This document shows, in pieces, positions 41,315-55,144 of a stretch of DNA of 64,000 bases. A program made the position numbers and the translations under genes. Numbering within the stretch: the first letter of the stretch is position 1; every line of letters starts with the position of its first letter. The notes beneath the pieces are model-generated. The model searched no databases and was not told the DNA's origin. It worked only from the letters and a program-made list of their open reading frames with translations. The stretch covers positions 544,001 through 608,000 of the forward strand of contig OZ241986.1 of assembly GCA_965204375.1 (NCBI GenBank). Reading direction: 5' to 3'. The DNA comes from Candidatus Latescibacterota bacterium. GTDB taxonomy: Bacteria; Latescibacterota; UBA2968.

Positions 41315-41387
41315 GGGCGCGTAGCTCAGGCGGTAGAGCAACGGCCTTTTAAGCCGTGGGTCGCAGGTTCGAATCCTGCCGCGCTCA
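41315..41387 (+). tRNA. tRNA-Lys(TTT)
   Basis: Full cloverleaf: GGGCGCG acceptor stem, ACGGC-CTTTTAA-GCCGT anticodon arm, GCAGG-TTCGAAT-CCTGC T arm; CCA not encoded (followed by CTA). Confidence 0.97.
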
Positions 41388-41400
41388 CTATTACAAAACG

Positions 41401-41598: not shown

Positions 41599-42345
41599 AT
41601 GTTTGTGCTTACCCGAGAAAAATTAAACGCGCAGTCCCTGGCTTTTGAAACGGCAGCTCTGGAAGATATTTTGATCTGGGCATGGGAGACGTTGGGGTCT
41701 CGCGTGGCGTTTGGTACTGCTTTTGGTGCCAGCGGCATGGTTTTGCTCGACGTGATGCAAAAGGTTGCGCCGCAAATTCCCGTATTTACAATTGACACGG
41801 GTTTTCTGTTTCCCGAAACTCTGAGTTTGATCGACCGCGTGGAGGCACGATATGGGATTGAGACTGAGCGGGTGCATTCCCGTTTGAGTGTTGAAGAGCA
41901 AGCGCGTGATTACGGTGATGAACTCTACAAGCGGGATGCCGACCGCTGTTGCTGGTTGCGAAAAGTCGAGCCTTTGCAACGCAAGTTGTCCCGGTTGAAT
42001 GGCTGGATTAATAGCCGCCGGCGAGATCAGGGCGATACCCGCAGCCAAATTTCCATTCTGGAATATTATGAGACAGATGGTCGCGCGTTGCTCAAATTGA
42101 ATCCCATGGCACCGTGGACGCGCAAACAGGTCTGGGATTATATTACTGAACACGATGTGCCCTATAATCCCTTGATGGATCAGGGCTTTGCCACGATAGG
42201 GTGCTGGCCCTGCACCAAAGCTGTGGATGCAGATGTAGATGAACGCGCCGGTCGCTGGGCGGGTTCAGATAAGACAGAGTGCGGTATTCACACTTTTTTG
42301 CAGCCGATTGATGCGGCGGTTAATCCCGTGCCTGTTGAATCTTGA
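41599..42345 (+). CDS. cysH: (Phospho)adenylyl-sulfate reductase, [4Fe-4S] type (likely APS reductase)
   Basis: IDTGFLFPET, RCCWLRKVEPL, IGCWPCT, RAGRW, ECGIH. Confidence 0.95.
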   Translation: MFVLTREKLNAQSLAFETAALEDILIWAWETLGSRVAFGTAFGASGMVLLDVMQKVAPQIPVFTIDTGFLFPETLSLIDRVEARYGIETERVHSRLSVEEQARDYGDELYKRDADRCCWLRKVEPLQRKLSRLNGWINSRRRDQGDTRSQISILEYYETDGRALLKLNPMAPWTRKQVWDYITEHDVPYNPLMDQGFATIGCWPCTKAVDADVDERAGRWAGSDKTECGIHTFLQPIDAAVNPVPVES

Positions 42346-42379
42346 CTTAGAAGGTCAAGAATAGTATTATTTTTTAATC

Positions 42380-42404
42380 GCGGCCCTCTCGTGGGGTCGT
42401 TTTT
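42380..42404 (+). terminator. Probable terminator after cysH
   Basis: GCGGCCC...GGGGTCGT followed by a T run. Confidence 0.55.
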
Positions 42405-42490
42405 CGTATATGGAAGTACGTGGGGGAATACTCTGAGAGAAAGAATTACTATGTCCAGCATCATGTCCGAAATCGTACAGGAGGCACGTC

Positions 42491-42976
42491 ATGGTGTCTA
42501 ATAGCGAGCGCAAGTATTATGACCGTTTTCTTCAAAACAATTTGCTGAGTCAGCGTTACCGCATCAAATTAAGCGATGGAGAAACGCTGGTAGGTGTTCC
42601 AAAAGCATATAGTGTCGTTAACCTTGAAAATCCAACGTTTTTTATTAACGGTTCAGAGTTTTCTTTACGCGACGTTGTAGAGGCGAAAGAGATATCTGAT
42701 ATTACAATTTACGCGACCAAACAACTGGATGGCTATACTTGTGGACTTGACCCCAGGAGCAAAGCAGCCATAAGAGCTCAAATTCCCCAAGAGTCGGTCC
42801 CGGTTACAAGCGTGTTTATTTCTTGTGATACCAAATCGGATTTTGAGAGTCTTCATGGTTCAGTTTGGAAACATATTGCAGAGCTTTTAACGAGCCTTTC
42901 AGAAGAAAAATTGCAAGAACTTGGCAAGGTCGTATTTGTAGATTCAAAGACGATGAAAGTATTATTTGAGCTTTGA
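42491..42976 (+). CDS. Hypothetical protein
   Basis: 161-aa ORF with AGGAGG RBS; no motif recognised. Confidence 0.7.
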   Translation: MVSNSERKYYDRFLQNNLLSQRYRIKLSDGETLVGVPKAYSVVNLENPTFFINGSEFSLRDVVEAKEISDITIYATKQLDGYTCGLDPRSKAAIRAQIPQESVPVTSVFISCDTKSDFESLHGSVWKHIAELLTSLSEEKLQELGKVVFVDSKTMKVLFEL

Positions 42977-42983
42977 GAGCGAC

Positions 42984-43475
42984 ATGTCTAAAAGAGCCAA
43001 TCTTTATACGGGTAGAGCAGGTCATCTTGCGGTTATGGCCGAACTTCTTCTTCGCGGGTGGAACACAGCCATTCCAGAAGTAGATGTGGGTGACGACATT
43101 TTTGTAGTACGCGATAGCGATGGGAACCTGCAACGCGTACAGGTAAAGACTGCTGTAGCAAAACCGTTGAAGTCTGGAGCACATAATGCACTATTCAATC
43201 TTTCGCTCTCGCAACTTAGTACGCCAGTAAATCCAGAAGTAATTTACGTTTTTGCAGTTCGACTTCACAGTCATTGGGATGCTTTTGTGGTGATTGACAG
43301 GGAAACTTTAAGAGAAACTTTAGCTGAGGAACTCAGTGGGTCTCACATTCAGATCAGAAGCGCCGACAGGCTCTTATTGCGGTTGCGTTTCACGGGCACA
43401 GGTGTCACTTGTGGGCAAAGCGACTTATCGCAATACAGAAATAACTGGACGCGCTTTCCCATCGTTGAGCACTGA
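42984..43475 (+). CDS. PD-(D/E)XK-superfamily nuclease-like protein
   Basis: GRAGHLAVMAELLLRGWN...VDVGDD...RVQVKT restriction-like motif. Confidence 0.7.
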   Translation: MSKRANLYTGRAGHLAVMAELLLRGWNTAIPEVDVGDDIFVVRDSDGNLQRVQVKTAVAKPLKSGAHNALFNLSLSQLSTPVNPEVIYVFAVRLHSHWDAFVVIDRETLRETLAEELSGSHIQIRSADRLLLRLRFTGTGVTCGQSDLSQYRNNWTRFPIVEH

Positions 43476-43492
43476 GGCTACAAAAAAATACC

Positions 43493-43717
43493 ATGTCCAC
43501 GATTATGTCTGAAATCATCTTTGAAGTCAGCGAGGATGAAGTTGATGGCGGATACTCCGCCAATGCACTGGGATATGGCATCCACACTGAGGGCGAAACG
43601 CTTGAGGAACTCCGGCAGAATGTCAAAGAAGCTGTCGAATGCTACTTTGATGAAACGATGAAACGCCCTGGATTGATTCGTCTGCACTTCGTTCATGATG
43701 AAGTCCTTGCGCTATGA
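43493..43717 (+). CDS. HicB-like antitoxin
   Basis: EIIFEV...GGYSANALG...TEGETLEELRQNVKEAVECYF...IRLHFV. Confidence 0.8.
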   Translation: MSTIMSEIIFEVSEDEVDGGYSANALGYGIHTEGETLEELRQNVKEAVECYFDETMKRPGLIRLHFVHDEVLAL

Positions 43718-43806
43718 AATTATCTCCAAGAAGCTTTCCCATAGAGGGAGGGCTGCGAGTAATGTTCAACTGCGATAGCAGTTCAACCTTCCCCAGAGAA
43801 AATTGA
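43714..43806 (+). pseudogene. Probable disrupted hicA toxin start
   Basis: ATGA overlap with the hicB stop, reads MKLSPR (HicA partners typically start MKLPRD), then unrelated sequence and a stop after 30 codons. Confidence 0.45.
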
Positions 43807-43809
43807 ACC

Positions 43810-44208
43810 ATGATACAGTATTACTATAAGCAGTACGGCGCGAACAGGGTTAAGCTCATGTCGGAATCACTTGACGATGCAATGGAGAGATCACCAAGCC
43901 ACTTGATCCTGTGCATACATGCGAAGAACCAGTTGGGTCGGGCAAACACTATTACCAATGCCTTGCCGAATAACTTAGTAAAGGCCCTATAGAAAAATAA
44001 TAGGGGTATCTATCGGCAGCGGAATATGCATCTCTTGACAAATAGAATAACTCCATCTGTGCAGGGAGGCGTAGCAATTGCGCCATTTATCAATCTCGAT
44101 TTCCTTCCTCGTATAGAATACTGTGCCCCTGGTGCAATTATCTATATTCCTTGGGGGAAAAATGATCTTTCTGCATACCAGGCTCAGACAAATGCCGAAG
44201 AAATATAA
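43810..44208 (+). pseudogene. Hypothetical gene split by one in-frame TAG
   Basis: ORFs 43810-43992 and 44026-44208 share a frame and are separated only by TAG (43990-43992) and 11 sense codons. Confidence 0.6.
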
Positions 44209-44295
44209 AAAGAGAAACGTCCCTCTCAATTGATTACAAAAATAGCGCGTCATTTGCGCTATCTCATTTTTACATATCAGGACATGAGGTACAAG

Positions 44296-46374
44296 ATGGA
44301 TTACAAAGAACTCAAAATGCATCAGACGGTTTTGTTGGATCTCTATAAATCCTTAGATAATGCCCTTGAGAAAGAGAGCGATGAAATTCCGGAAGACGTA
44401 AAGCAGAGTCAAGAGAATATCGCGGCGGAAAAATTTCTACTTGCCATCGTTGGGGAAGTAAAGGCGGGTAAATCAACCTTTATCAATGCAATTCTTGGAG
44501 AGGCAATATTACCTTATGACACCTTACAAGCTACCTCTGAAATAGTTGAAATATACCACTCTGAAAAAAAGGAAGTTCAAGTAACCTTTGCCAATGGTAA
44601 AACGCAAGCTGTTGAGGATGACCCACAAACACCCGAAAATGAAGCGGTACCATTTCTTAAAAAGATTGCTTCTGTCAATGAGGAATACCGTGGCATTCCA
44701 ATCGTTCAGGTCAATAGATTCTTGATTGATCATTATAGCGAATCAGAGGGAAAAGCTGTATTTGAAAAGTCGGAATTAGAGGATTTCATTTTTGACCCTG
44801 GGCTTGAAAATATATACAAATTGGAGACAGAGGTATTTGGAGACAAAATTCGCAAATATATTGCGAAGCATATTTCCTGTGATGAGATTTCCGAAAGGGT
44901 TACTCTCGGTTATCCACATGACTTTTCTGAGTTCAAGCATTTCAGGATTGTAGATACGCCGGGGATCAATGCAATTGGCGGTATAGAGAATCAAACGAAG
45001 GAGTTCATCAAACAAGCCGATGCGGTTATATATCTCCATAATGCAAATCAATTAGAAAGTAAAGCACTTCGCAATGCTTTGGAGAATGAACTTCCTAACA
45101 GGGTTAAAGATCGTCTGATACTCGTCCTGACCCATAGAAGCGAAAAATATTATCCTGGTGAAGATGAACATGAGAGAATATTGGAGGAGATCAAAAGGCT
45201 TTATCCTGAAATCGGATCAGGTGACATCTTTTTTGTGGATAGCTTGACTGAACTATATTTGAAAGCGTTCTATGGGAAATCAATGGATGAAATCAATGCT
45301 ATGCGGAGACAAGACGCGCAACTAAGAAGGCTAACTTCTGATTGTGTTGAGGTGGCTGATGGTAATGCCTATGGTCTTCTTGAGCTATTAGAAGAGCAGT
45401 CCAATTTCAAGGAGATTCGCAAAAGAATCGAAAGAGATGCACAAAATTCCGCTTCTATACAAATGAAGGATTTTGCCAGTGACATACAAGAGCAATATGA
45501 AGTTCTTGACAATAAAATTAGCGGACGGATAGAACCTCTCAAAGTGAAATATCAAGCCCCTCAGTCTTTTGCATCGGAGATACAGAAGCAGAAACATGAA
45601 ATGGATACAATGAGAAGTGATTACAATAATTTTACATCTGAGCTGATTGCAGAATTCTCTTCTCGCGATATGAACAGCAGGTATTATCAAAAAATAGAGC
45701 AAATAGTAAATAAATATCGCAATGAGATTAACCAAAAAAAATTCAATCCAGACCATCACAAACAAAAAACCGTTGAGGCTTATGTGGAGACATTGAGAGA
45801 TAATTATGGTGATGAAATGACTAAGTTCGTTGATTCACTAAAGGCAGACTTCAAAAAAAGAATAGCGGATAGAGATTTTGAAGTACAAAGTGATTACTCA
45901 ATAACCGTGCCAAAGATATCAGTAGGTAGTGTATGGGAGAAAGCATTAAATACAGCTAACAAAAAAATAAAAAAGCAAGTAGATAAAGTGGACAGCGATC
46001 AAGGTCTTTTAAGTACCCTTTTCCACTTTTTGACGCTGTTTATATTTGATGAGAGTGATGAAAAAAAAGAAAAAATAAGGAAAAAATTTCCACAGCAGCT
46101 TTGGAAAGAGATGCAATCGCCGTTTGTAAAACAATTAGACACACATCTGACACGAATGCAGGAAAATATTGATCAGTTAATAAATGATTTTTGTAAACAT
46201 TATCAGTCTAAATTCAATGGAGAACTTCTGGAACGAAAACGGTATGTGGAAAAACTTGAGAACGAGAAAAAAACAAGTGAGGAATTAGAAAAAGAGATTT
46301 CAACCTTAGAGACGCAAAAAAAAACGATCGAGGACAATATCGAGATGTGTATAAAAATCAGAGGGGAGTTGTGA
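44296..46374 (+). CDS. Dynamin-like GTPase
   Basis: G1 GEVKAGKST, G3 DTPG, G4-like LTHRSE, helical coiled-coil C-terminus with hydrophobic paddle LLSTLFHFLTLFIF. Confidence 0.88.
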   Translation: MDYKELKMHQTVLLDLYKSLDNALEKESDEIPEDVKQSQENIAAEKFLLAIVGEVKAGKSTFINAILGEAILPYDTLQATSEIVEIYHSEKKEVQVTFANGKTQAVEDDPQTPENEAVPFLKKIASVNEEYRGIPIVQVNRFLIDHYSESEGKAVFEKSELEDFIFDPGLENIYKLETEVFGDKIRKYIAKHISCDEISERVTLGYPHDFSEFKHFRIVDTPGINAIGGIENQTKEFIKQADAVIYLHNANQLESKALRNALENELPNRVKDRLILVLTHRSEKYYPGEDEHERILEEIKRLYPEIGSGDIFFVDSLTELYLKAFYGKSMDEINAMRRQDAQLRRLTSDCVEVADGNAYGLLELLEEQSNFKEIRKRIERDAQNSASIQMKDFASDIQEQYEVLDNKISGRIEPLKVKYQAPQSFASEIQKQKHEMDTMRSDYNNFTSELIAEFSSRDMNSRYYQKIEQIVNKYRNEINQKKFNPDHHKQKTVEAYVETLRDNYGDEMTKFVDSLKADFKKRIADRDFEVQSDYSITVPKISVGSVWEKALNTANKKIKKQVDKVDSDQGLLSTLFHFLTLFIFDESDEKKEKIRKKFPQQLWKEMQSPFVKQLDTHLTRMQENIDQLINDFCKHYQSKFNGELLERKRYVEKLENEKKTSEELEKEISTLETQKKTIEDNIEMCIKIRGEL

Positions 46375-46994
46375 TGGAACTCATCTACACTGAGCACATA
46401 TTCGCTGATATAGAATCTCTGGTACAAAAAATTGAAACGTATTTCAATGATCTTGACTCAGAGAAGATCGAAAGCGAAGTATTTGCATCGAGAATCGCTA
46501 ATGAGTTGGCTACCCGTCTCGAAAATATCAATGGCGTAATCCAGACAACACTGCTGACATATCTGGACAAAGATGCGCGAAAAGAGATTTCAGACTGGGG
46601 GCCAGCGGATCAGAATCGGTACTATGATAAGGGAATCCGCGAAAAGGTCTCATCACAAATTTGTGAGACAGATTCCTTTTCTCCTAAAGTTTGGCCCAAG
46701 AAATACATCAAAATTGCTTCTGGTGTTGTTGCTGCCGGAGGACTCTATCGCGCCTTTTCATCTCCTGTTTCCTTATCTTCTGGGATGTTTATTTCTGGGA
46801 TGTTTATTGTCGTTGTGGCAGCAGGTATGTTTTTTTTAATTCCTCGTGTCGTGGATAAGCACAATAAGAGTAAGACTTTAGAGGAATTGGGTGCTTATCT
46901 TGATGCTGTCGAAAAAAGATACAAAGACCAGGCCCAAGAAGTTATTGATGAGTATGTCTCTCTATTCAACGAAATAATACCTAAAAAGGAATAA
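46374..46994 (+). CDS. Small membrane protein with two hydrophobic segments, coupled to the dynamin gene
   Basis: TGATG overlap with the dynamin stop; helical N-terminus, IASGVVAAGGLY and MFIVVVAAGMFFLI segments, coiled C-terminus. Confidence 0.8.
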   Translation: MELIYTEHIFADIESLVQKIETYFNDLDSEKIESEVFASRIANELATRLENINGVIQTTLLTYLDKDARKEISDWGPADQNRYYDKGIREKVSSQICETDSFSPKVWPKKYIKIASGVVAAGGLYRAFSSPVSLSSGMFISGMFIVVVAAGMFFLIPRVVDKHNKSKTLEELGAYLDAVEKRYKDQAQEVIDEYVSLFNEIIPKKE

Positions 46995-46999
46995 GGACA

Positions 47000-49900
47000 G
47001 TGGCAAATCTGAACGATAAATCATTAGCCCTTGAAAGACCAAAGGTTCTATCCCAAGAAGATGGTGCCAAAGAACTTGAAGAAATTTTCTCAGAACTTCT
47101 TCCTTGGGCTATCGAAGCAAAAGATGATGCTGCACTTTTAAGAGAGAATACCATACAAAGTCGAGATGACATTGAAACATTTCTCGGTTCCATTTATTTG
47201 TTCCATGTTGGAGAAATTTCTATTTCCACAGAAACCCAGGATGCAGCTGACTTGATCTATAAAAGACACCAGGCCGCAATTATTGCCGCCTATCAGTCAG
47301 GCTATACACTTACGACGATCATTGCGGGAAATGGTGGTACTGTTGATATTTTTCTCGGAGTATGTAGTGAAGAGGATCGGGATGTGAAAGATGTGTTCAG
47401 TGAGCAATTGCAGGGAATTTATCCCGGAAAAGGCATTAAATTTGTGGATGAATCTATAAAGGATAGGCTGGAAAAAAAGAAATATGAACATGGCGGAGTT
47501 CTTACAGGTATCCCGACACAGAAAATAGACGAAGAAAAGCAGACATTCGATCTATCTTCGGTGATAAGAAGCATGAATGGTCAGGAATTTCTTCTTGCGA
47601 TTGTTTTCCGCCCCATTGAAAAAAAGCATGAAGCTACAGAACAACTTCTCAAATTAATGGAGTTAAAAGATCTGTGCCATGCATTGGCAAACAGGAGAAT
47701 CAGTGTCGATGAGAATGTAAGTGAAAGTGGGAGTCAATCTGACAGTAAAGGTAAAAGTGGGGGGCAGTCGAAATCACCAAACATTTTCAAATCATTTGTA
47801 CAAAGTCTTTGGTCTGGGCTGCAAACAGATACCGAAGGCTGGTCTAAAACGACAATAAATACTGAAGGCTGGTCAAAAAGTAGCGGGCGAAGTTTTTCTC
47901 TTGAACAGCCAGACACTTTTGCGATGGAGTTGGAAAATATCGCGGATAAGTTGATCACCCGATTGCGCAATGGTCTAAACATCGGACTTTGGGAAAGTTT
48001 TATCACCTACGCGACCACATCCTCCACGGCTGCGCAGATTTTATCTGGCACTTTGGCAGGAGAACTGATCAAGGCTGATCCTGAAGCACTGCCTATGCGA
48101 AATGTTGCCGGTCAACTATCTCCTGCCGTTCCGCTCTATATTCCCAGAAAGCGGGATGGAAAATCTCTTATCGAAGGTAATAAATTGTTGTCGTTCGTGT
48201 CGAGCGATGAAGCAGCACTGCTCATGGCTCCTCCGCTTTCTTCTGTCCCTGGCTATGATATCCGCGTCAAGCCCGCATTGAGTCTGACAGACACTACAGA
48301 CCATAGGGGGCATCCAATTGGGCGTATTTCTGAACATGGAAGGGAAGTGCAAGACTCTGAGTTTAAAATATCAAAAGAGGATGTCCGAAAGCATATCTTT
48401 GTTTCTGGTCTTACTGGCTCGGGTAAGACGACGACGGTTAAGCACATTCTAAATTGTATTGATGATACGTCCTTTCTGGTGATTGAATCCGCCAAGAGAG
48501 AATACCGCAGATTATTGAGAGAGGAGAAATACGATGAAAGACTCGACGTCTATACCGTTGGAGATGCAAATATTTCACCGATACGCCACAATCCTTTTAT
48601 GGTGCTTCCTGGGGTGTCACTCATCATCCATATTGACAATCTCAAATCCATTTTTTACGCGAGTTTTTCACTCTATGGGCCTATGCCCTATATCCTCGAA
48701 AAATGTATTTACAACATCTACGAGGACCGTGGATGGAATCTGACTACGGGCAAACACCAGCGCGTCACAATAGAAACTTTTGAGGATTGCAATAATCACC
48801 GCTTTATCTATCCTACGATTAGAGACTTGATTGATGAAGTGAACCGATATGTGGAGGATGAATTGGAATATGACGGGGAACTTAAGGACAATATCCGCAG
48901 TGCGATTGTCGCCCGTCTTGAATCCCTGGCCGTTGGCGCAAAAGGGTTTCTCTTTAACACACATGAGGCGATTGACATAAAGGATTTTCTAAATAGAAAC
49001 GTTGTGCTTGAACTCGAGTCTCTTTCCGATGATGACGATAAAGCATTCTTTGTCGGTTTGATACTTGCTTTGGTAAGCGAATATCGACAATCTAATGCCC
49101 GTCAAAGCGAGAGCGTTCAGGATACCAGGGATGCCAGGGATGATCTACGGCATGTGTTGGTTATTGAAGAAGCGCACAGGTTGCTTAAAAACGTACAGAC
49201 TGAGCGCACCCATGAAATGCTGGGCAATCCCAAAGGGAAGGCCGTGGAGTCTTTCTGCAATCTCATTGCCGAGATGCGGTCTTATGGTCAGGGTGTGATT
49301 GTTGCAGAGCAAATCCCCACCAAAATAGCCCCTGATGTGATCAAGAATACCAATACCAAAATTATTCACAGGCTCGTTTCTCTGGATGACCAGATTGCCG
49401 TAGGTACGGGATTGGGGTTGGATGAACACGAATGTCGATATCTAAACCAGCTTTCTGCGGGCACGGCACTCGCGCATAAAGAAGGGATGTCAAAACCTGT
49501 TGAAATCTCCGTCTTCAACGAACTGCGGAATGATCCGATGGGAGACATACGAATCAAACGTTTTGGTAGTGAACGCACCCCAAATTTGCCATCGGAATTG
49601 GCACTACACGAAAGCGGACTGCTGGAGAGCCAGCATCTGAGAGCGATTGCTCTCAGATTGGTCAATTCGTTTTTTATGTCAGATATTGAACTCAACAACC
49701 TATTGTCTGATGCAATAACGACAGTCAAAAAAGGAGAGCAACTTACGTATGTAAAGGATGAAACTATAGAACATGCTTTGAAGGAACGGTTTTATCGAAT
49801 TTTATTTTCAGCAACTTTGGGTTTTGTAAATGAAAAAGCGATTGATGAAGAGATTTTAAAGATTTTTAATCGGCTTTGGCAGGATCGTGATCGTTTTGAT

Positions 49901-50104
49901 CGCGGGCGATTCATAGACTCATTTGACGAGTGGTTGGGTGATTGCAGCCGCAATCGCATCAAGGAGAATATGGCGAATGATGCCATTCTCGAGAGCCGAG
50001 CAAAAAAAATGGAAATTGAAAAAATCGTTGATAAGATGCAGCTCGCCGAGGACTTAGCAGCCAAACGCGAGGTCATGGACGCGATAAGCAAGAGGGTAAT
50101 GTAA
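47000..50104 (+). CDS. HerA/FtsK/VirB4-superfamily (DUF87-like) ATPase with long N-terminal extension
   Basis: GLTGSGKTTT Walker A, LVIEEAHRL Walker B, EMRSYG arginine finger, AEQIPTK, NTNTKIIHRL. Confidence 0.9.
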   Translation: MANLNDKSLALERPKVLSQEDGAKELEEIFSELLPWAIEAKDDAALLRENTIQSRDDIETFLGSIYLFHVGEISISTETQDAADLIYKRHQAAIIAAYQSGYTLTTIIAGNGGTVDIFLGVCSEEDRDVKDVFSEQLQGIYPGKGIKFVDESIKDRLEKKKYEHGGVLTGIPTQKIDEEKQTFDLSSVIRSMNGQEFLLAIVFRPIEKKHEATEQLLKLMELKDLCHALANRRISVDENVSESGSQSDSKGKSGGQSKSPNIFKSFVQSLWSGLQTDTEGWSKTTINTEGWSKSSGRSFSLEQPDTFAMELENIADKLITRLRNGLNIGLWESFITYATTSSTAAQILSGTLAGELIKADPEALPMRNVAGQLSPAVPLYIPRKRDGKSLIEGNKLLSFVSSDEAALLMAPPLSSVPGYDIRVKPALSLTDTTDHRGHPIGRISEHGREVQDSEFKISKEDVRKHIFVSGLTGSGKTTTVKHILNCIDDTSFLVIESAKREYRRLLREEKYDERLDVYTVGDANISPIRHNPFMVLPGVSLIIHIDNLKSIFYASFSLYGPMPYILEKCIYNIYEDRGWNLTTGKHQRVTIETFEDCNNHRFIYPTIRDLIDEVNRYVEDELEYDGELKDNIRSAIVARLESLAVGAKGFLFNTHEAIDIKDFLNRNVVLELESLSDDDDKAFFVGLILALVSEYRQSNARQSESVQDTRDARDDLRHVLVIEEAHRLLKNVQTERTHEMLGNPKGKAVESFCNLIAEMRSYGQGVIVAEQIPTKIAPDVIKNTNTKIIHRLVSLDDQIAVGTGLGLDEHECRYLNQLSAGTALAHKEGMSKPVEISVFNELRNDPMGDIRIKRFGSERTPNLPSELALHESGLLESQHLRAIALRLVNSFFMSDIELNNLLSDAITTVKKGEQLTYVKDETIEHALKERFYRILFSATLGFVNEKAIDEEILKIFNRLWQDRDRFDRGRFIDSFDEWLGDCSRNRIKENMANDAILESRAKKMEIEKIVDKMQLAEDLAAKREVMDAISKRVM

Positions 50105-50739
50105 TGGCAGTTGAAACCGCAGTTGCGGCTATAGCAGCAGAAGGCGTGGCGGAAGTGGCGGTTGCCGAAATGGCGTCTGAGGTCATTGCCGAATCTTCAA
50201 TCAGCGGGGCAGCCGAATTGGACGGAATCCTTTCTGCCATTGAGAAAGAGGTCCCGCGAGAAATCGTCAACAAACAGGTTGACGCGGTACTTCAAGATAC
50301 GGCATTACGCAGTGAACTCGTCCCGCAAATCGAAACCAAGAACCAGCATTTGGAAGGGACGCTACACCCTGAAACGGATGTTCCCTTTGAATCCAAATGG
50401 GTCGAAACTCGTGAAGGCTACAAAGAAGGCGTGTTTCCTGATTTTTCTGCATCTTATGAGACTCAGCTTCCCGAGAATTTACATGAAGCAAGTGATTATG
50501 AGCAGGCCACGTATTGTAACGAACAATTGGGTCAAGCTTCTGAGAATGGCAATCTCAATACAGAGCAATTCACAGACAGGCAATTGGAACAGATTCGCAA
50601 TGGAGATAAGCCCGAGGGATATACTTGGCACCACCATGAGGACCTGGGACGCATGCAGTTAGTGCCTTCAGATATTCACGAAAAAACAGGGCATACAGGT
50701 GGTCGCAGCTTATGGGGTGGTGGGAGTGAAGCTCGATAA
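50104..50739 (+). CDS. HNH-fold nuclease toxin, WHH / colicin-DNase-like
   Basis: HPETDVPF, FPDF, GYTWHHHEDLGRMQLVPSDIHEKTGHTGG; TAATG coupling to the ATPase. Confidence 0.9.
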   Translation: MAVETAVAAIAAEGVAEVAVAEMASEVIAESSISGAAELDGILSAIEKEVPREIVNKQVDAVLQDTALRSELVPQIETKNQHLEGTLHPETDVPFESKWVETREGYKEGVFPDFSASYETQLPENLHEASDYEQATYCNEQLGQASENGNLNTEQFTDRQLEQIRNGDKPEGYTWHHHEDLGRMQLVPSDIHEKTGHTGGRSLWGGGSEAR

Positions 50740-50754
50740 AAAAGAGAGCATACT

Positions 50755-51153
50755 ATGAATTTGAAATGGAAATACGTTGAGCCATTGGATGAGAGCCAAT
50801 TGTCTAAAATTGAGGATCATTTTGGCCTGAGCTTGCCGGATGATTACAAGAAATCACTCTCGGAATGCAATCAGGGAAAACCCACCTTAGAACGTTTTGA
50901 TACAGAATTTAAAAAGGAGTGTGTTCTCGATTATATGATTGATCTCTCGGATATGGTTTCCCTCGCCAAAACTATGTCTGCCGATTACGACATTGAGAAT
51001 TTGATACCCATATCACGCGACCCATTTGGAAATCTGATTGCCTTTCGGATAGCAGGACGGCAGGTGGATGGAGTGGTGTTTTGGGATCATGAAACAAATA
51101 AAATTTCCAAAATTTCAGGTAGTTTTACAGAATTTATCGAAAAGCTATACTGA
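50755..51153 (+). CDS. SMI1/KNR4 (SUKH) family immunity protein
   Basis: IEDHFGLSLPDDYK, IPISRDPFGNLIAF, VVFWDHE, ISGSFTEFIEKL. Confidence 0.92.
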   Translation: MNLKWKYVEPLDESQLSKIEDHFGLSLPDDYKKSLSECNQGKPTLERFDTEFKKECVLDYMIDLSDMVSLAKTMSADYDIENLIPISRDPFGNLIAFRIAGRQVDGVVFWDHETNKISKISGSFTEFIEKLY

Positions 51154-51197
51154 CCGATTTATCGGAGGGGTGTGCACAAATCAAAAATTACACTTCA

Positions 51198-51935
51198 ATG
51201 AGTGAATTGAGAACGATTATGAACACCATCCATACCATAGAAGACCTGATACAACTCCTGGACGAAAATCCCCAGTGGACCGAAGCCATGCGTGCCCGGC
51301 TATTGACGCGCGAACTGATTGAACTGCCCGAAAAGTTCACACAGTTTGCCGTCGAGATGAATAGCTTTGTTGCAGAGGTAAAGAGCTTCATCGAGGCCAC
51401 GAACCGGCGTTTTGAAAGCCTTGAACAGTACCTTGACCAGTCCATTGAGGCCACGAATCGGCGTTTTGATACACTCGAAAATAGAGTGAAGTCCATCCAG
51501 GATGATGTAGGGATACTCAAAGGTGCCCACGCCCGCAGTGCCGCGCTTAGAGAGGCCACCTCCATTGCCAGGGACATCGGCCTTCAGCGGACGAAAAACC
51601 TCACTCAGGACGATCTGTGGGCACTGACCGACCTCGCCGATACATCGGGTATTCCCGTAAACGAACTGAGGAGTTTCCGCCGCGCCGATCTGATCATGGA
51701 GGCCACCGATCTGAATGGCGAAACTTGCTACATCGCCGTGGAAATTTCCTTTACCGCCAATGGCCGGGACACCACTCGCGCCCTCCGAAACGCCGATTTT
51801 TTGACGAGGTTCACGAGTAAGCAATCCTATGCCGCTGTGGCTGGTCTGTACCGAGATGACCGCATACAGGACGAAATCGAATCTGGAGAAGTATTCTGGT
51901 ATCAACTGGATCCGGAAGTCTTGGAAGCAGAGTAA
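51198..51935 (+). CDS. Coiled-coil protein with C-terminal PD-(D/E)XK-like region
   Basis: LLDENPQW...RARLLTREL N-terminus, duplicated IEATNRRF, ADLIME...YIAVEIS. Confidence 0.65.
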   Translation: MSELRTIMNTIHTIEDLIQLLDENPQWTEAMRARLLTRELIELPEKFTQFAVEMNSFVAEVKSFIEATNRRFESLEQYLDQSIEATNRRFDTLENRVKSIQDDVGILKGAHARSAALREATSIARDIGLQRTKNLTQDDLWALTDLADTSGIPVNELRSFRRADLIMEATDLNGETCYIAVEISFTANGRDTTRALRNADFLTRFTSKQSYAAVAGLYRDDRIQDEIESGEVFWYQLDPEVLEAE

Positions 51936-51985
51936 CAACCCATGCCCTTTCTTCCCTACACAATAACAACGGCTAAAGGCCATTT

Positions 51986-52930
51986 ATGCGTCACAAAAAG
52001 CTATCAAAGCGTTCTCGCATCCGACACTCGATTCTCGGTGCAATAGGCAATACGCCGCTGTTGCGTATCCGGGACCTGGGAGACAAGATCAATCCCGAGG
52101 TTGAAATCTGGGCGAAGTTGGAGATGTTTAACCCGGGCGGATCGGTCAAGGATCGCCCCGCTTTGCAGATGATTGAAGATGCCGAAAAAGCAGGGGTGCT
52201 CACGCCGGAGAAAGTGATTTTGGATTCGACTTCGGGCAATACGGGTATTGCGTATGCCATGATCGGCGCAGCAAAGGGATACCGCGTCGAGTTGGTTATG
52301 CCCGAGAGCGTGAGTATTGAGCGGCGATACGTCATTCAGTCTTATGGATCTGATCTGGTGTTGAGCGACCCTCTTGAAGGTTCAGATGGTGCGATTTTGA
52401 AATGTCGAGAAATGCTGGCTGCAAATCCCGATTTGTATTACAAACCCGATCAGTACAATAATCCATCCAATTCCAGGGCACATTATTTGCATACGGCACC
52501 GGAAATCTGGTCGCAGACACAGGGGAGGGTGACGCATTTTGTGGCGACGTTGGGCACGAGCGGTACTGTAATGGGGACTGGCAGAGGTCTGAGGGCATTT
52601 AATCCCGATGTGCAGATTATTGCCGTTGAACCACCCGAATTTCACGGGATTGAGGGCCTGAAAAATATGGATGTGTCTATTGTGCCAGGTATTTACGATC
52701 CATCGGTGTGGGACCAGAAGATTCGGATTGAAACAGAAGATGCGTATGACATTGCGCGATGGTTGACGCGAGATATGGGTTTGCTGGTGGGGCAGTCTTG
52801 CGGTGCGGCGATGGCCGCTGCTCTAAAAGTTGCCGAGACTCTGGATGAAGGGGTCATCGTCACTTTGTTTCCCGATAGTGGTGAAAAGTATATGAGTACG
52901 CCTCTGTGGCGGCTCGATCCCGAGAGGTAG
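51986..52930 (+). CDS. cysM: PLP-dependent cysteine synthase (CysM-like)
   Basis: IGNTPL, NPGGSVKDR, STSGNTG, GTSGT; directly upstream of mec and cysO. Confidence 0.85.
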   Translation: MRHKKLSKRSRIRHSILGAIGNTPLLRIRDLGDKINPEVEIWAKLEMFNPGGSVKDRPALQMIEDAEKAGVLTPEKVILDSTSGNTGIAYAMIGAAKGYRVELVMPESVSIERRYVIQSYGSDLVLSDPLEGSDGAILKCREMLAANPDLYYKPDQYNNPSNSRAHYLHTAPEIWSQTQGRVTHFVATLGTSGTVMGTGRGLRAFNPDVQIIAVEPPEFHGIEGLKNMDVSIVPGIYDPSVWDQKIRIETEDAYDIARWLTRDMGLLVGQSCGAAMAAALKVAETLDEGVIVTLFPDSGEKYMSTPLWRLDPER

Positions 52931-52932
52931 AG

Positions 52933-53388
52933 ATGTTTGACAAAGCGATTTGGGACGCCATGTTTGTCCATGCACAGCGGGAATACCCGGCTGAGTGTTG
53001 CGGTATTGTGACCGAAGATGCTTCGGGGGGGCAGGTGATTCATCCGTGTGAGAATATCCAGGATAAATTGCACGCTGCCGATCCCGAAACCCATCCGCGC
53101 ACTTCCCGGACAGCCTATCGCATGAACGATATGCAGGTGATGAAAATTCAATCGGAGACGGAGCAAGCGGGTGGGCGGATTGTCGCGATCTATCATTCGC
53201 ATATCGATGTAGATGCTTATTTTTCTCAAGAGGATCAAGATGCGGCGACATTTTTTGGTGAGCCAACCTATCCGGGCGTGGTTTATCCCATCATTCCAGT
53301 AAAAAATGCCCGGGTGGATATCGGCGGGGAAAAAGTTTTTCAATGGCGTGATTCGTCGTCAAAATTTGAGGAAGTGGAAATTCGGTGA
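52933..53388 (+). CDS. mec: JAB/MPN+ (M67) metallopeptidase, Mec-like
   Basis: YPAECCG, YHSH...YFSQED JAMM motif. Confidence 0.85.
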   Translation: MFDKAIWDAMFVHAQREYPAECCGIVTEDASGGQVIHPCENIQDKLHAADPETHPRTSRTAYRMNDMQVMKIQSETEQAGGRIVAIYHSHIDVDAYFSQEDQDAATFFGEPTYPGVVYPIIPVKNARVDIGGEKVFQWRDSSSKFEEVEIR

Positions 53389-53410
53389 AATGTAAAAAAG
53401 GAGGTAACAA

Positions 53411-53686
53411 ATGGCTGTCACAGTTCGGATTCCAACGCCGTTGCGCAAATTTACAGGTGATCAATCCGATGTAGAAGTGCAGGGCGCGACGGTTGGGGAA
53501 GCTATCGACAATCTCGAAGCACAGCATGCGGGCATTAAGGAACACATGGTCGATGAGTCGGGTGCTATTCGACGCTTTGTCAATGTGTATGTCAACGAAG
53601 AGGATATTCGCTTTCTGGATGGACCCGATACGGATCTCAAAGACGGCGACCAGGTGACTATTGTGCCTGCGATTGCCGGTGGGTAA
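53411..53686 (+). CDS. cysO: MoaD/ThiS-family sulfur carrier protein (CysO-like)
   Basis: VRIPTPLR, FVNVYVNEEDIRF, C-terminal AIAGG. Confidence 0.85.
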   Translation: MAVTVRIPTPLRKFTGDQSDVEVQGATVGEAIDNLEAQHAGIKEHMVDESGAIRRFVNVYVNEEDIRFLDGPDTDLKDGDQVTIVPAIAGG

Positions 53687-53752
53687 AAAACGGTCAGATA
53701 TCAATCCTCGCCGTTTTTATGTGCTGTGCGGGGAATAACCACTAACCACTTC

Positions 53753-53780
53753 GTAAGGGCGGGTTTCAAACCCGTCCCTA
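53753..53780. repeat. REP-like palindrome (GTAG/RAYT type)
   Basis: GTAAGGGCGGGTTTCAAACCCGTCCCTA imperfect hairpin. Confidence 0.7.
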
Positions 53781-53789
53781 ACTAATCTT

Positions 53790-54221
53790 ATGATGCACAT
53801 TTCCGCTAAAGGTGACTATGGTTTGCGCGCGGTCTTAGACCTGTGTCTGCACGATGGGAAAGGGCCAATTTTGCGTACCGATATCGCTGCGCGGCAACAC
53901 ATCCCCGAAGCGTATCTGGTGCAACTGCTCAATCTTTTGCGAAAAGCCGGTTTGGTACACAGCATTCGCGGTCCCAAAGGCGGACATGTGTTGTTGAAAC
54001 GTCCAGATGAACTGACCGTGGAAGAGGTGTTGGCTGCTCTGGAGGGGCCTGTCAATTTGGTGGATAAGCGCGAAAAGGCTGAGGATGCGGGAACAGATGT
54101 GCTCAATGACGTGTGGGAAGCTGTGGGGACCGCTGTACACGATGTCCTGTCATCGGTGACATTTGCCGATTTGTGCCGAAAGTACCGGGCGCGTCAGATG
54201 CCTGTCACATTCCGGATTTGA
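53790..54221 (+). CDS. Rrf2 family transcriptional regulator (CymR-like)
   Basis: YGLRAVLDL, YLVQLLNLLRKAGLVHSIRGPKGG; lacks the IscR cysteine triad. Confidence 0.92.
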   Translation: MMHISAKGDYGLRAVLDLCLHDGKGPILRTDIAARQHIPEAYLVQLLNLLRKAGLVHSIRGPKGGHVLLKRPDELTVEEVLAALEGPVNLVDKREKAEDAGTDVLNDVWEAVGTAVHDVLSSVTFADLCRKYRARQMPVTFRI

Positions 54222-54223
54222 TT

Positions 54224-55144
54224 ATGGATGGCGCGAAAACTGGACATACGGTGTTGGACCTCGTGGGCAACACGCCCATGGTACAACTGAACTCGGTGGG
54301 ACCTGAAAATGGTGCTCAGCTTTGGGCGAAATTGGAATTTTTTAACCCGGCGGGCAGCGTAAAAGATCGCACGGCTCTCGCTATGGTTGAGGCCGCAGAA
54401 GAAAATGGGCAACTCAAACCCGGTATGACCATTGTGGAACCGACCAGTGGCAATACGGGTATTGGCCTTGCCATGGTGGCTGCGATTAAAAATTATCGGC
54501 TGATCATTACCATGCCCGAAGGCGTCAGCGACGAGCGCACCCGATTGCTCAAAGCTTATGGTGCCGAGGTTGTGCTAACACCCGTCCGCGAGGGGATGCG
54601 GGGGGCAATTGAAAAAGCGTGGACGCTTAAGGACAAAAATTGTTTTATTCCGATGCAGTTTGAAAATCCCGCCAATCCCGAGATTCATCGGCAGACCACT
54701 GCCAGCGAGATGATTTCACAACTCGAGGGCGTTCCCGATGCTTTTGTCGCAGGTGTGGGAACGGGGGGGACCGTGACCGGTGTGGGCGAGGTTTTTAAGC
54801 AGGTGCGATCAGATGTCGTGGTCGTCGGCGTAGAGCCAAGGGATTCTGCGGTGTTATCGGGTGGAGAACCCGGTCCCACTGAGATCGATGGTCTGGGCGC
54901 AGGCATGATTCCAGATGTGCTGAATACGGAAATACTGGATCGCGTGATTGCCGTATCCAATTCGGATGCGCGCAAGATGTCAAAGCGATTGGCGCGCGAA
55001 GAGGGCTTGCTGGTGGGGATTTCGTCGGGTGCAGCAGCACACGCCGCCGCTGTTGTCGCTTCTGGTATGAGACCTCAACAGACGGTCGCAACGGTATTGT
55101 GCGATACCGGTGAACGGTATTTGGGCACGTTTTTATTTGGGTGA
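54224..55144 (+). CDS. cysK: Cysteine synthase A
   Basis: VGNTPMV, NPAGSVKDR, EPTSGNTG, QFENPAN, GTGGT, DTGERYL. Confidence 0.92.
   Translation: MDGAKTGHTVLDLVGNTPMVQLNSVGPENGAQLWAKLEFFNPAGSVKDRTALAMVEAAEENGQLKPGMTIVEPTSGNTGIGLAMVAAIKNYRLIITMPEGVSDERTRLLKAYGAEVVLTPVREGMRGAIEKAWTLKDKNCFIPMQFENPANPEIHRQTTASEMISQLEGVPDAFVAGVGTGGTVTGVGEVFKQVRSDVVVVGVEPRDSAVLSGGEPGPTEIDGLGAGMIPDVLNTEILDRVIAVSNSDARKMSKRLAREEGLLVGISSGAAAHAAAVVASGMRPQQTVATVLCDTGERYLGTFLFG

What the first reader, a model, noticed from the sequence alone, without database searches (positions are those of the whole stretch)
44296..51153. Candidate undescribed conflict system: dynamin + membrane protein + HerA-type ATPase + WHH nuclease + SUKH immunity
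Seen in sequence: five co-oriented genes with very tight junctions (TGATG overlap, 5-bp gap, TAATG overlap, 15-bp gap) in a visibly AT-rich island. Established knowledge: WHH/HNH nuclease plus SMI1/KNR4 is a polymorphic toxin-immunity pair. Bacterial dynamins (DynA, LeoABC/Eleos) remodel membranes and can restrict phage. HerA-family ATPases act in Sir2-HerA and DUF4297-HerA defence and are related to the VirB4/FtsK/EssC secretion motors. I know of no named system that combines all five parts. Inference, with two models: (a) a minimal toxin-delivery pathway in which the ATPase loads the nuclease and the dynamin/TM pair provides membrane fusion or vesicle release; (b) an abortive-infection system in which membrane damage sensed by dynamin triggers ATPase-driven release of the nuclease from its immunity protein.
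Basis: partly seen in the sequence, partly recalled or inferred. Interest (0 to 1): 0.9.

Follow-up and report, generated by a model that had tools for sequence, protein, structure and literature searches.

The report
Dynamin, VirB4-like ATPase, swappable nuclease toxin
Five tightly packed genes form a mobile module, found in many bacterial phyla and apparently not described before, in which a dynamin and a secretion-type ATPase are always paired with an exchangeable DNA-cutting toxin and its antidote, probably as a defence or competition weapon.

Summary
Five co-oriented, abutting genes lie in a low-GC island: a dynamin-like GTPase, a small membrane-hairpin protein, a 1034-aa ATPase, a WHH/colicin-DNase toxin and a SUKH immunity protein.

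The order is conserved. In 133 loci from many phyla, the dynamin lies upstream in 89 of 95 assessable loci. A toxin carrying a shared N-terminal adaptor lies downstream in at least 99 of 114.

The toxin is modular. A conserved adaptor of about 65-80 residues is followed by an exchangeable nuclease domain (WHH, LHH, an unnamed REase-like domain, others). Each class pairs with its own immunity family, with no cross-pairs among 91. Two loci are 91.5% identical in DNA from the dynamin to about codon 65 of the toxin, then unrelated.

The ATPase is VirB4-like in both halves, not classic HerA. It has an extra C-terminal helical domain predicted to bind the adaptor (ipSAE 0.83, best control 0.00).

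No sixth gene is conserved. WYL regulators and restriction or other defence genes are frequent neighbours.

My reading is an undescribed conflict module. An ATPase-gated intracellular nuclease defence is most likely (about 0.5). Toxin export is the main rival (about 0.3). No named system or paper I could search matches it.

The parts
44296..46374 (+). Dynamin-like GTPase, 692 aa, with a GEVKAGKST P-loop and no hydrophobic segment
   Evidence: Pfam Dynamin_N 9.2e-20. PADLOC LeoBC 3.9e-21 over model positions 47-597 of 601. No TM segment. A homolog lies upstream of the ATPase in 89 of 95 assessable loci.
46374..46994 (+). Small membrane partner, 206 aa: helical N-terminal part, hydrophobic hairpin, short C-terminal helix. 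It is the only membrane anchor in the module.
   Evidence: No Pfam, NCBIfam or PADLOC family. Hydrophobic stretch at 139-171 of the 215-aa reading. Present together with the dynamin in 81 of 95 assessable loci. Absent in Latescibacterota loci L003, L004, L007 and L011. Atlas leads only: Fzo_mitofusin 0.80, LeoA DLP_helical 0.78.
47000..50104 (+). VirB4-like ATPase, 1034 aa. N-terminal domain aa 54-422, carrying a disordered Ser/Gly/Thr-rich insert at aa 237-302 (nt 47708-47905). P-loop ATPase domain aa 429-846 (nt 48284-49537). All-helical C-terminal domain aa 850-1034 (nt 49547-50101).
   Evidence: AF2 model pLDDT 82.3. ATPase domain against VirB4 4ag5_A: Z 31.8, rmsd 3.2, 351 aligned; DndH-C 7es4: Z 30.7; HerA 4d2i: Z 26.7. 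N-terminal domain modelled alone (pLDDT 76.9) against TrwK/VirB4 7o42_A: Z 15.8, rmsd 3.6, 251 aligned; next best Z 8.0. Walker A G470-T479 and the E723-E724 block are invariant in 40 sequences. Single copy in its own genome.
50104..50343 (+). N-terminal adaptor of the toxin, about aa 1-80. It is the constant part shared by toxins of different classes.
   Evidence: Alignments. Predicted to dock through aa 31-79 on ATPase aa 878-1034: ipSAE 0.83 in three runs, best of three controls 0.00. The recombination breakpoint in L029 versus L064 falls right after it. No Pfam, PDB-sequence or ATPase-internal relative.
50419..50736 (+). WHH / colicin-DNase-type HNH nuclease domain of the toxin (aa 106-211)
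   Evidence: Pfam Colicin-DNase 1.8e-31 (aa 106-199) and WHH 1e-18 (aa 167-206). W175, H176, H177, H192 and H197 are invariant in 16 sequences.
50755..51153 (+). SUKH (SMI1/KNR4) immunity protein, 132 aa
   Evidence: SUKH_6 1.5e-18, SMI1_KNR4 3.9e-18. WHH toxins pair only with this SUKH cluster, 23 of 23 paired loci.
42424..51967 (.). The low-GC island that carries the module. It lies between a PAPS-reductase gene and a PALP (cysteine-synthase-type) gene.
   Evidence: One metagenome contig (run X7, depth 3.27) joins 42423 to 51968 with 21 other letters between, which is an empty site. GC profile. Flank families. The ATPase was found in 6 of 20 other genomes of the genus and in 0 of 20 genomes of other genera in the family or order.

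Best explanation
The five genes are one horizontally mobile module. Shown: their order is conserved across many phyla, and nothing else is conserved with them. Shown: the toxin is built from a constant N-terminal adaptor and an exchangeable nuclease domain that always travels with its own immunity gene. Predicted: the adaptor docks on the extra C-terminal helical domain of a VirB4-like ATPase. Inferred: the ATPase holds the immunity-bound nuclease as its client at the inner face of the membrane, where a split dynamin (GTPase protein plus hairpin anchor) sits. On a signal linked to membrane or DNA disturbance by a phage or other invading element, ATP hydrolysis frees or aims the nuclease. The nuclease then either kills the infected cell or cuts DNA reeled in by the ATPase. 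On this reading the module is an intracellular defence system that borrows polymorphic toxin-immunity cassettes as its effector.
For: The module is conserved. Dynamin is upstream in 89 of 95 loci, dynamin plus TM partner in 81 of 95, an adaptor-bearing toxin downstream in 99 of 114, and toxin plus immunity in 91 of 114. These are lower bounds. There is no sixth conserved cluster. The client relation is supported by the predicted adaptor to ATPase-CTD complex: ipSAE 0.83, best control 0.00. That mark was reached by 58 of 80 solved complexes and 2 of 110 mismatched pairs; the runs share at least 84% of contacts; partner pLDDT is at least 56. Several points favour an intracellular role. (1) HTH-WYL-WCX regulators lie directly upstream and co-oriented in 10 of 71 assessable loci, and occur in 22 of 133 loci; this regulator family is reported to co-localise with defence systems (PMC9122601, PMC9122588, PMC11662680: search listing, titles and starts of abstracts; PMC9122601 was also searched for six terms, which found none of them). 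(2) In Tenacibaculum L024 the module sits between type III mod (4.6e-227) and res (7e-292), with an HKD+Snf2 gene next; L025 and L028 share these flanks. (3) Among 124 flank ORFs from 25 loci there are matches to Zorya II, AbiE, type I MTase, mad2 and PDC candidates. (4) Only the 206-aa partner has a membrane segment, and it is missing in 4 Latescibacterota loci. (5) No channel, outer-membrane or cell-wall component is conserved. (6) Near-identical machines occur in bins labelled Clostridia and Deltaproteobacteria (ATPase 79%, TM partner 78% identity) and in two archaeal bins. (7) The toxins are 160-290 aa, consisting of adaptor plus nuclease with no room for receptor or import domains. (8) Nearly all effectors are DNases. 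(9) There is one adaptor-bearing toxin per genome in 6 of 6 genomes checked.
Against: The toxin and immunity families (WHH, LHH, Endonuclea_NS_2, CDI EC869-like; SUKH) are those of secreted polymorphic toxins (PMC3482391 and PMC3113570, passages read). Cassette swaps between 91.5%-identical loci, and 19 class changes on a 98-tip ATPase tree, look like strain competition. Both halves of the ATPase are VirB4-like, a lineage known from secretion machines. L081 carries a second, HExxH peptidase-like toxin without its own immunity gene. The defence-neighbour evidence has no matched control. Of 11 loci whose nearest neighbours were scanned one by one, only 3 gave strong defence-type hits (L024, L020, L016), 3 gave weak or generic hits, and 5 gave none. 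No relative was found in viral contigs. No trigger or phenotype is known, and the complex is a prediction.
Confidence: 0.5

Rival explanations
1. Inter-bacterial toxin delivery. The VirB4-like ATPase recognises the adaptor, strips the immunity protein and drives the nuclease out of the cell. The hairpin protein and dynamin would supply a pore, vesicle scission or membrane remodelling. This would be a new minimal export route for polymorphic toxins.
For: It has the architecture of a polymorphic toxin: a constant N-terminus, a variable C-terminal toxin and a co-varying immunity gene, with 0 cross-pairs among 91. The recombination breakpoint is sharp and lies after the adaptor. There are 19 class changes on the ATPase tree against a mean of 40.6 in shuffles. 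L081 has tandem toxins that share the adaptor, one of them peptidase-like and without immunity. Both ATPase domains have the VirB4 fold. The adaptor is predicted to sit on the cytoplasm-distal helical domain, like a substrate receptor. Leo dynamins were first linked to enterotoxin output in E. coli (recalled; cites only their pathogenicity-island location).
Against: No conserved channel, outer-membrane or wall-spanning part exists. The ATPase and dynamin have no TM segment, and the only anchor is lost in 4 loci. The same machine occurs in bins of monoderm, diderm and archaeal taxa. The toxins have no signal peptide-like or import domain by Pfam and are too short for one. A cytoplasmic dynamin acts on the wrong face of the membrane for outward budding (established knowledge, inference). 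There are no extra adaptor-bearing toxins or orphan cassettes in 6 of 6 genomes. WYL and restriction-modification neighbours are present.
Confidence: 0.3
2. The toxin-immunity pair is mainly an addiction (stabilising) cassette for a mobile island. The dynamin, TM partner and ATPase do something else, such as membrane repair or DNA handling, and merely carry the cassette along.
For: The island is an insertion/deletion polymorphism: there is an empty-site contig and a patchy spread within the genus. L051/G001 holds a decayed remnant at the same site that still has the toxin and immunity genes.
Against: The adaptor is conserved with the ATPase across phyla and is predicted to bind it. The toxin gene overlaps or abuts the ATPase stop in most loci. 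The breakpoint keeps the adaptor with the ATPase. A plain addiction pair needs no such adaptor.
Confidence: 0.1
3. Chance adjacency of a dynamin defence gene pair, an ATPase and an unrelated toxin-immunity pair in a junk-rich island.
For: The island also holds unrelated small ORFs and a separate insertion at 51198-51935.
Against: The same order and tight junctions occur in 133 loci from many phyla.
Confidence: 0.02

Closest known systems
Polymorphic toxin systems exported by FtsK/HerA-class ATPases (T7SS: EssC/YueA with LXG/WXG toxins)
   Same: A small helical N-terminal domain marks the toxin for an ATPase of the FtsK-HerA-VirB4 superfamily. The C-terminal nuclease (WHH, LHH) is exchangeable, and a SUKH immunity gene follows (PMC3113570 and PMC3482391, passages read).
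   Different: There is no LXG, WXG or LDXD match. The ATPase has one VirB4-like module and no TM segments, rather than the multi-domain membrane-bound EssC. A dynamin is part of the module. The module occurs in diderms and in archaeal bins. There is one toxin per genome.
HerA-effector defence systems (Sir2-HerA/Nezha, DUF4297-HerA) and DndH
   Same: The ATPase domain belongs to the same structural class: HerA-DUF4297 assembly 9c1m Z 23.8, HerA-Sir2 8j4u Z 20.5, DndH-C Z 30.7. An effector nuclease is encoded next to it and is predicted to dock on it. The context is defence-island-like.
   Different: The N-terminal domain is VirB4-like rather than a clear HerA type. NCBIfam HerA_antiphage scores 36 bits against a cut-off of 800. 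The effector carries its own immunity protein. A dynamin and a membrane anchor are added.
Eleos / LeoABC dynamin defence system
   Same: The dynamin matches the PADLOC LeoBC model over nearly its full length. The membrane part is a separate small protein, as in split Leo genes (passage).
   Different: Eleos is defined as two consecutive dynamin-like genes. The window has one dynamin, plus an ATPase, a toxin and an immunity gene. Only L074 has two dynamins.
Type IV secretion VirB3/VirB4 core
   Same: Both ATPase domains have the VirB4 fold. A small hairpin membrane protein is encoded directly upstream, which is the position of VirB3 (the position is from established knowledge; homology was not tested).
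   Different: No other T4SS component is conserved nearby. There is an extra C-terminal helical domain and a Ser/Gly/Thr-rich insert. The NCBIfam VirB4 and VirB11 matches are far below cut-off.

Membership tests
Polymorphic toxin system (sensu Zhang et al. 2012) | Constant N-terminal region with a variable C-terminal toxin domain exchanged by recombination | tested here: met
   The adaptor is shared by WHH, LHH, REase-like, c92 and NS_2 toxins. Pairs with 70-75% identical ATPases have 50-62% identical adaptors and unrelated C-termini. The breakpoint falls at about codon 65.
Polymorphic toxin system (sensu Zhang et al. 2012) | Cognate immunity gene directly downstream, co-varying with the toxin | tested here: met
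   LHH-SUKH_5 57, WHH-SUKH_6 23, REase-like-DUF7832 11, and no cross-pairs.
Polymorphic toxin system (sensu Zhang et al. 2012) | Toxin is secreted through a recognised export route (signal peptide or T2/T5/T6/T7/PVC marker domain) | tested here: not met
   No trafficking-domain match in Pfam at E<=0.1 for 11 toxins. Actual export cannot be tested with these tools.
Polymorphic toxin system (sensu Zhang et al. 2012) | Orphan toxin tips or immunity cassettes nearby or elsewhere in the genome | tested here: not met
   Exactly one toxin or adaptor match in the window's own genome and in 5 isolate genomes. The only tandem case seen is L081.
Eleos (LeoA + LeoBC) | Two consecutive dynamin-like genes | tested here: not met
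   The window has one Dynamin_N gene. LeoBC matches at 3.9e-21, and the LeoC model matches only weakly (2.3e-3) on the same protein.
Type IV secretion system | VirB4 ATPase with both the N-terminal and the C-terminal domain | tested here: met
   Z 15.8 (N-terminal domain, 7o42_A) and Z 31.8 (C-terminal domain, 4ag5_A). This is fold likeness only; sequence models score far below their cut-offs.
Type IV secretion system | Conserved companions (VirB6/8/9/10, coupling protein, pilus or relaxase genes) | tested here: not met
   All-against-all clustering of ORFs in 133 loci gives no conserved gene beyond the five and WYL. T4SS-specific profiles were not run.
HerA-effector defence (Sir2-HerA, DUF4297-HerA) | HerA-family ATPase that reaches the family score | tested here: not met
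   NCBIfam HerA_antiphage 36.2 bits against 800, and helicase_HerA 27.5 against 970. PADLOC HerA models match only the C-terminal part of the ATPase domain.
HerA-effector defence (Sir2-HerA, DUF4297-HerA) | Effector assembles on the ATPase ring | tested here: inconclusive
   A monomer-level complex of the adaptor with the ATPase C-terminal domain is predicted. Ring assembly was not modelled.
T7SS-type toxin export | WXG/LXG-type N-terminal domain and a membrane-bound multi-domain EssC/EccC | tested here: not met
   No LXG or WXG match. The ATPase has one P-loop domain and no TM segment. EccC and EssC domains score only Z 13-17.
MADS (mad1-8) | mad8 together with the other mad genes | tested here: not met
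   mad8 matches at 1.1e-18 on the ATPase domain only. No other mad model hit any of the 8 window proteins scanned.

The most novel reading that the evidence does not exclude
A dynamin plus a VirB4-lineage ATPase form a new, envelope-independent route that hands polymorphic nuclease toxins out of the cell, by vesicle or a minimal pore, in bacteria and possibly archaea. That would be a new class of protein secretion or delivery system. The more probable defence reading is also new in kind: an immune system whose effector is a toxin-immunity cassette gated by a VirB4-like motor.
Probability: 0.25. Interest if true: 0.95.

Novelty: new variant of a known kind. Interest (0 to 1): 0.82.

Why it matters
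The module links three well-studied machines that are not known to work together: bacterial dynamins, VirB4-type motors and polymorphic toxin-immunity cassettes.

It gives bacterial dynamins a concrete partner set. It shows a VirB4-like ATPase outside any type IV secretion system. It also defines a new toxin adaptor domain with a predicted receptor.

If it is a defence system, it shows how immunity-bound toxins can be used as gated effectors. If it is an export route, it is a new secretion principle.

The module has five genes and about 7 kb. It occurs in cultivable Pseudomonas, Halopseudomonas, Advenella and Tenacibaculum strains, so the question can be tested directly.

Tried and rejected
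- Earlier findings of this scan: three look-ups, by place, sequence and words, returned nothing.
- Viral contigs: 54 pattern matches, none a relative. Only two peptide patterns were used, so this is a weak negative.
- RNA evidence: no RNA holder is listed for the stretch, so nothing can be said on expression.
- Promoter and terminator scan: 8 promoter-like sites against 16.2 expected and 8 terminator-like sites against 7.8 expected, which is uninformative.
- Direct repeats flanking the island: none found.
- Idea that the adaptor pairs with a homologous domain inside the ATPase (effector-associated-domain style): hhalign probability 0.17%, rejected.
- Adaptor profile against PDB sequences: best E 0.86.
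- Fold of the unnamed REase-like toxin: only weak leads. These are an Hjc-like 2eo0 at E 0.34 with the D...E-V-(K/T)-S motif aligned and Atlas Tox-REase-7 at 0.88 and Tox-REase-2 at 0.87. There was no consistent Pfam hit in 12 members. The label 'nuclease' for this class is therefore an inference.
- TM partner: no family. The Atlas leads (Fzo_mitofusin 0.80, DLP_helical 0.78) are below the level to trust.
- Foldseek on the whole ATPase model could not separate VirB4 from HerA. Folding the N-terminal domain alone settled it.
- My ORF filter, which keeps the longest of overlapping ORFs, hid real genes in some loci. Toxins of L002, L005 and L013 and the DUF7832 genes of L031, L036 and L039 were seen but missed. 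The counts are therefore lower bounds.
- In the 133-locus clustering, the dynamin and TM partner fell into one cluster for reasons I did not resolve.
- Distant ATPase paralogs on plasmids (26-33% identity) lie in other contexts, DUF2357 near Csm6 and WYL. They are suggestive only.
- Only one protein pair could be modelled. Dynamin with TM partner and ATPase with dynamin were not tried.

Full report
**1. The observation**

I read the TGATG overlap and the 5-nt gap in the sequence. The 1-nt overlap at 50104 and the 15-nt gap follow from the ORF coordinates. GC falls to 0.35-0.46 inside the stretch, against 0.51-0.58 in the flanks.

Family scans give the following:
- A dynamin-like GTPase: Dynamin_N 9e-20, and PADLOC LeoBC 4e-21 over almost the whole model.
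- A 206-aa protein with no family and one long hydrophobic hairpin.
- A 1034-aa P-loop ATPase with weak DUF87/HerA, mad8, CedD and 'serine-rich protein' matches, all far below family cut-offs.
- A toxin with Colicin-DNase (2e-31) and WHH (1e-18) domains.
- A SUKH immunity protein (1.5e-18).

The catalytic WHH residues, both P-loops and the Walker B block are intact.

**2. Conservation**

The ATPase has at least 1336 relatives at 90% clustering. It has 2365 cluster representatives at E<=1e-30. A pattern scan of one genome per species returned 52 loci. Their record titles name Latescibacterota (the closest, 68-77% identity), several proteobacterial orders, Bacteroidota, Planctomycetota, Binatia, Cloacimonadota, Ignavibacteria, Calditrichota, WOR-3, Clostridia and two archaeal bins. 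A metagenome scan added 80 loci.

All-against-all clustering of the ORFs in these loci plus the window gives only the five gene families as widely conserved. A WYL regulator is the next most frequent, in 23 loci.

Counted on 133 loci:
- Dynamin lies upstream in 89 of 95 loci that have at least 2.9 kb of upstream sequence.
- Dynamin plus TM partner are present in 81 of 95.
- A toxin of the adaptor-linked cluster lies downstream in 99 of 114 loci that have at least 1.1 kb of downstream sequence.
- Toxin plus a clustered immunity gene are present in 91 of 114.

These are lower bounds, because my ORF filter hid some genes that searches had shown. Junctions are mostly between -8 and +40 nt.

**3. 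The toxin is modular**

Toxins that follow related ATPases share the first 60-90 residues, roughly 'M-x-E-P/Q-hydrophobic-S/T-A ... K-E ... P-L ... I-E-N-x-S-L-E-x-L-x-A-x-N-E'. The window's clade has a variant, '...E-L-x-x-x-L-S-A-I-E-K-E-I-P-R-E...'. Their C-terminal domains differ.

The C-terminal classes seen are:
- LHH, Pfam 1e-16 to 1e-25.
- WHH/Colicin-DNase.
- An unnamed domain with a D...E-V-T-S motif that is only weakly REase-like.
- A second unnamed type, in L026 and L071.
- Endonuclea_NS_2, in L034.
- CDI EC869-like REase, in L135.
- Two HExxH peptidase-like cases, in L081 and L134.

Immunity families track the toxin class without exception: LHH with SUKH_5 (57 loci), WHH with SUKH_6 (23), the REase-like class with DUF7832 (11), and no cross-pairs.

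Pairs with 70-75% identical ATPases have 50-62% identical adaptors and unalignable C-termini. Examples are L024/L025, which share the same chromosomal flanks, and L015/L020 and L016/L017.

On a FastTree of 98 full-length ATPases the toxin class changes at least 19 times. Five hundred label shuffles give a mean of 40.6 and a minimum of 34. I left out 11 ATPases with no classified toxin and all ATPase ORFs under 900 aa.

The clearest case is L029 (LHH) against L064 (WHH). They are 91.5% identical in DNA over 6082 nt, from upstream of the dynamin to 194 nt into the toxin gene. After that they are unrelated through the toxin tip and immunity gene. A 68-nt match resumes downstream.

**4. The ATPase**

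The AF2 model has pLDDT 82.3. It shows four parts: an alpha/beta N-terminal domain, a disordered Ser/Gly/Thr-rich insert (aa 237-302), a P-loop domain (aa 429-846) and an all-helical C-terminal domain (aa 850-1034).

Against 48,161 representative chains, the P-loop domain is closest to VirB4 (4ag5_A: Z 31.8, rmsd 3.2, 351 residues). Next come DndH-C (Z 30.7), HerA (Z 26.7) and TrwB (Z 22.1).

Folded alone (pLDDT 76.9), the N-terminal domain has one clear match, TrwK/VirB4 (7o42_A: Z 15.8, rmsd 3.6, 251 residues). The next chain scores Z 8.0. So the protein has a full VirB4-type architecture with two additions.

The C-terminal domain is the least conserved part. A complex prediction of ATPase aa 429-1034 with toxin aa 1-110 supports binding. 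The score was 0.83 in three runs and 0.00 in the best of three controls. That mark was reached by 58 of 80 solved complexes and 2 of 110 mismatched pairs. The runs share at least 84% of contacts, and the partner's pLDDT is at least 56. My own alignments were used, so these calibration counts hold only roughly. [quoted passage not shown] The prediction supports binding but does not show it.

**5. Dynamin and anchor**

Neither the dynamin nor the ATPase has a hydrophobic segment. The 206-aa partner is the only anchor. It is absent from four Latescibacterota loci, where the dynamin abuts the ATPase. Its nearest named Atlas clusters, mitofusin Fzo region and LeoA helical domain, score too low to count as more than a lead. 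L074 has two dynamins and L042 has a second one downstream.

**6. Context**

The window's module sits in an island bounded by a PAPS-reductase gene and a PALP enzyme gene. One metagenome contig joins 42423 to 51968, which is an empty site. Contigs of three runs lack the ORF at 51198-51935, so that ORF is a separate insertion.

The ATPase is single-copy in its 6.34-Mb genome. It was found in 6 of 20 other genomes of the genus, one of them a remnant, and in none of 20 genomes of other genera in the family or order. L004 has the module at the same site, and L051 holds a decayed copy there.

HTH-WYL-WCX regulators lie directly upstream and co-oriented in 10 of 71 assessable loci.

In Tenacibaculum L024 the module lies between type III mod and res genes, with an HKD+Snf2 gene next. 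L025 and L028 share these flanks.

A batch PADLOC scan covered 124 non-redundant flank ORFs. They came from 25 loci, lay within 5 kb, and were 124 of the 199 selected, the rest being cut by the size limit. The scan also hit Zorya II, AbiE, type I MTase, mad2 and PDC candidates. It has no matched control and gives no per-locus count.

Nearest neighbours of 11 loci were scanned singly. Three gave strong defence-type hits, three gave weak or generic hits, and five gave none.

No relative was found on viral contigs. In 6 of 6 genomes there is only one adaptor-bearing toxin.

**7. Mechanism**

Shown: a conserved five-gene module, and a toxin made of a constant adaptor plus an exchangeable nuclease with its matched immunity gene.

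Predicted: the adaptor binds the ATPase C-terminal domain.

Inferred: the ATPase treats the immunity-bound nuclease as a client and uses ATP to free or direct it, at a membrane site set by the split dynamin.

I favour an intracellular defence role (0.5), for these reasons:
- The machine has no conserved channel or envelope parts.
- Its only anchor is dispensable in some loci.
- It is nearly the same in bins of monoderm, diderm and archaeal taxa. Binning errors are possible.
- The toxins are too small to carry import domains.
- Nearly all effectors are DNases.
- Neighbours include WYL regulators and restriction or other defence genes.

Within this reading, I cannot tell whether the nuclease kills the cell or cuts DNA pumped by the ATPase.

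The main rival (0.3) is export for strain competition. It is backed by the toxin and immunity families, the very recent cassette swaps, the VirB4 lineage, and a peptidase-like second toxin that has no immunity gene.

**8. Comparison and novelty**

The module shares its toxin logic with polymorphic toxin systems, its ATPase fold with T4SS VirB4 and defence HerA/DndH, and its dynamin with Eleos. It fails defining features of each (see the membership rows).

PADLOC (2023) has no system model for it.

Seven full-text searches found no paper that combines a dynamin with a HerA, FtsK or VirB4 ATPase and toxin-immunity genes. The main texts of Zhang et al. 2012 and 2011 mention HerA/FtsK ATPases only for T7SS and T4SS, and never mention a dynamin. 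Millman et al. 2022 define the dynamin system as two dynamin genes. Picton et al. 2022 do not mention dynamin, DUF87, VirB4 or HerA.

The library covers open-access papers and bioRxiv only, and supplements were closed. An unnamed listing elsewhere cannot be excluded.

I rate this a new variant of a known kind, a conflict system with a polymorphic toxin-immunity effector, with a real chance of being more than that.

Noticed in passing
window 51198-51935 (+): A 245-aa ORF with a coiled-coil N-terminus and no family. It holds a 37-nt near-repeat at 51389 and 51443. Contigs of three related metagenome runs lack it (joints at about 51154-51160 to 51970), and a homolog of its C-terminal part lies between the TM and ATPase genes in L001. 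It looks like a small separate insertion and not part of the module.
   Followed up: partly
window 47708-47905 (ATPase aa 237-302): A disordered Ser/Gly/Thr-rich insert in the VirB4-like N-terminal domain. It is kept as low-complexity sequence across the family and includes a 30-nt tandem repeat at 47824 and 47854 that encodes TEGWSK twice. NCBIfam's 'serine-rich protein' model matches the ATPase at 3e-27. Its role is unknown.
   Followed up: partly
L024 728-15914 (also L025, L028): In Tenacibaculum the five-gene module is inserted between the mod and res genes of a type III restriction-modification system, followed by an HKD+Snf2 gene.
   Followed up: yes
L081 6979-9181: Two toxins in tandem share the adaptor. 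The first is 328 aa with an HExxH motif (Peptidase_M91 only at 0.046) and has no immunity gene of its own. The second is an LHH toxin followed by SUKH_5.
   Followed up: partly
L054 and L055 (plasmids): Distant paralogs of the ATPase (28-31% identity) lie in other conflict-like contexts: next to a DUF2357 protein and near Csm6 on a Photobacterium damselae plasmid, and behind a WYL regulator on an Acinetobacter piscicola plasmid. The wider ATPase family may serve several systems.
   Followed up: no
window 42491-44322: The upstream part of the island holds small ORFs without families. One has a sub-threshold PD-(D/E)xK match (42966-43475, PDDEXK_5 1e-4). The 74-aa ORF at 43493-43717 had no Pfam hit.
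   Followed up: partly
window 41315-41388 and 41599-55144: A tRNA-Lys(ttt) gene lies 1 kb before the island. The island interrupts a sulphur-metabolism cluster of PAPS reductase, two PALP enzymes, Prok-JAB and Rrf2.
   Followed up: partly
L074 1-4927; L042 14502-16592: Some loci carry a second dynamin gene. It is upstream in L074, giving an Eleos-like pair in front of the TM partner and ATPase, and downstream in L042.
   Followed up: no
L051 9926-12157 / G001: A decayed copy of the module sits at the same chromosomal site as in the window. It has ATPase fragments (a 173-aa ORF in L051; a 179-aa open frame with one TGA stop inside the match in G001) but still has the WHH toxin tip and the SUKH gene.
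   Followed up: partly
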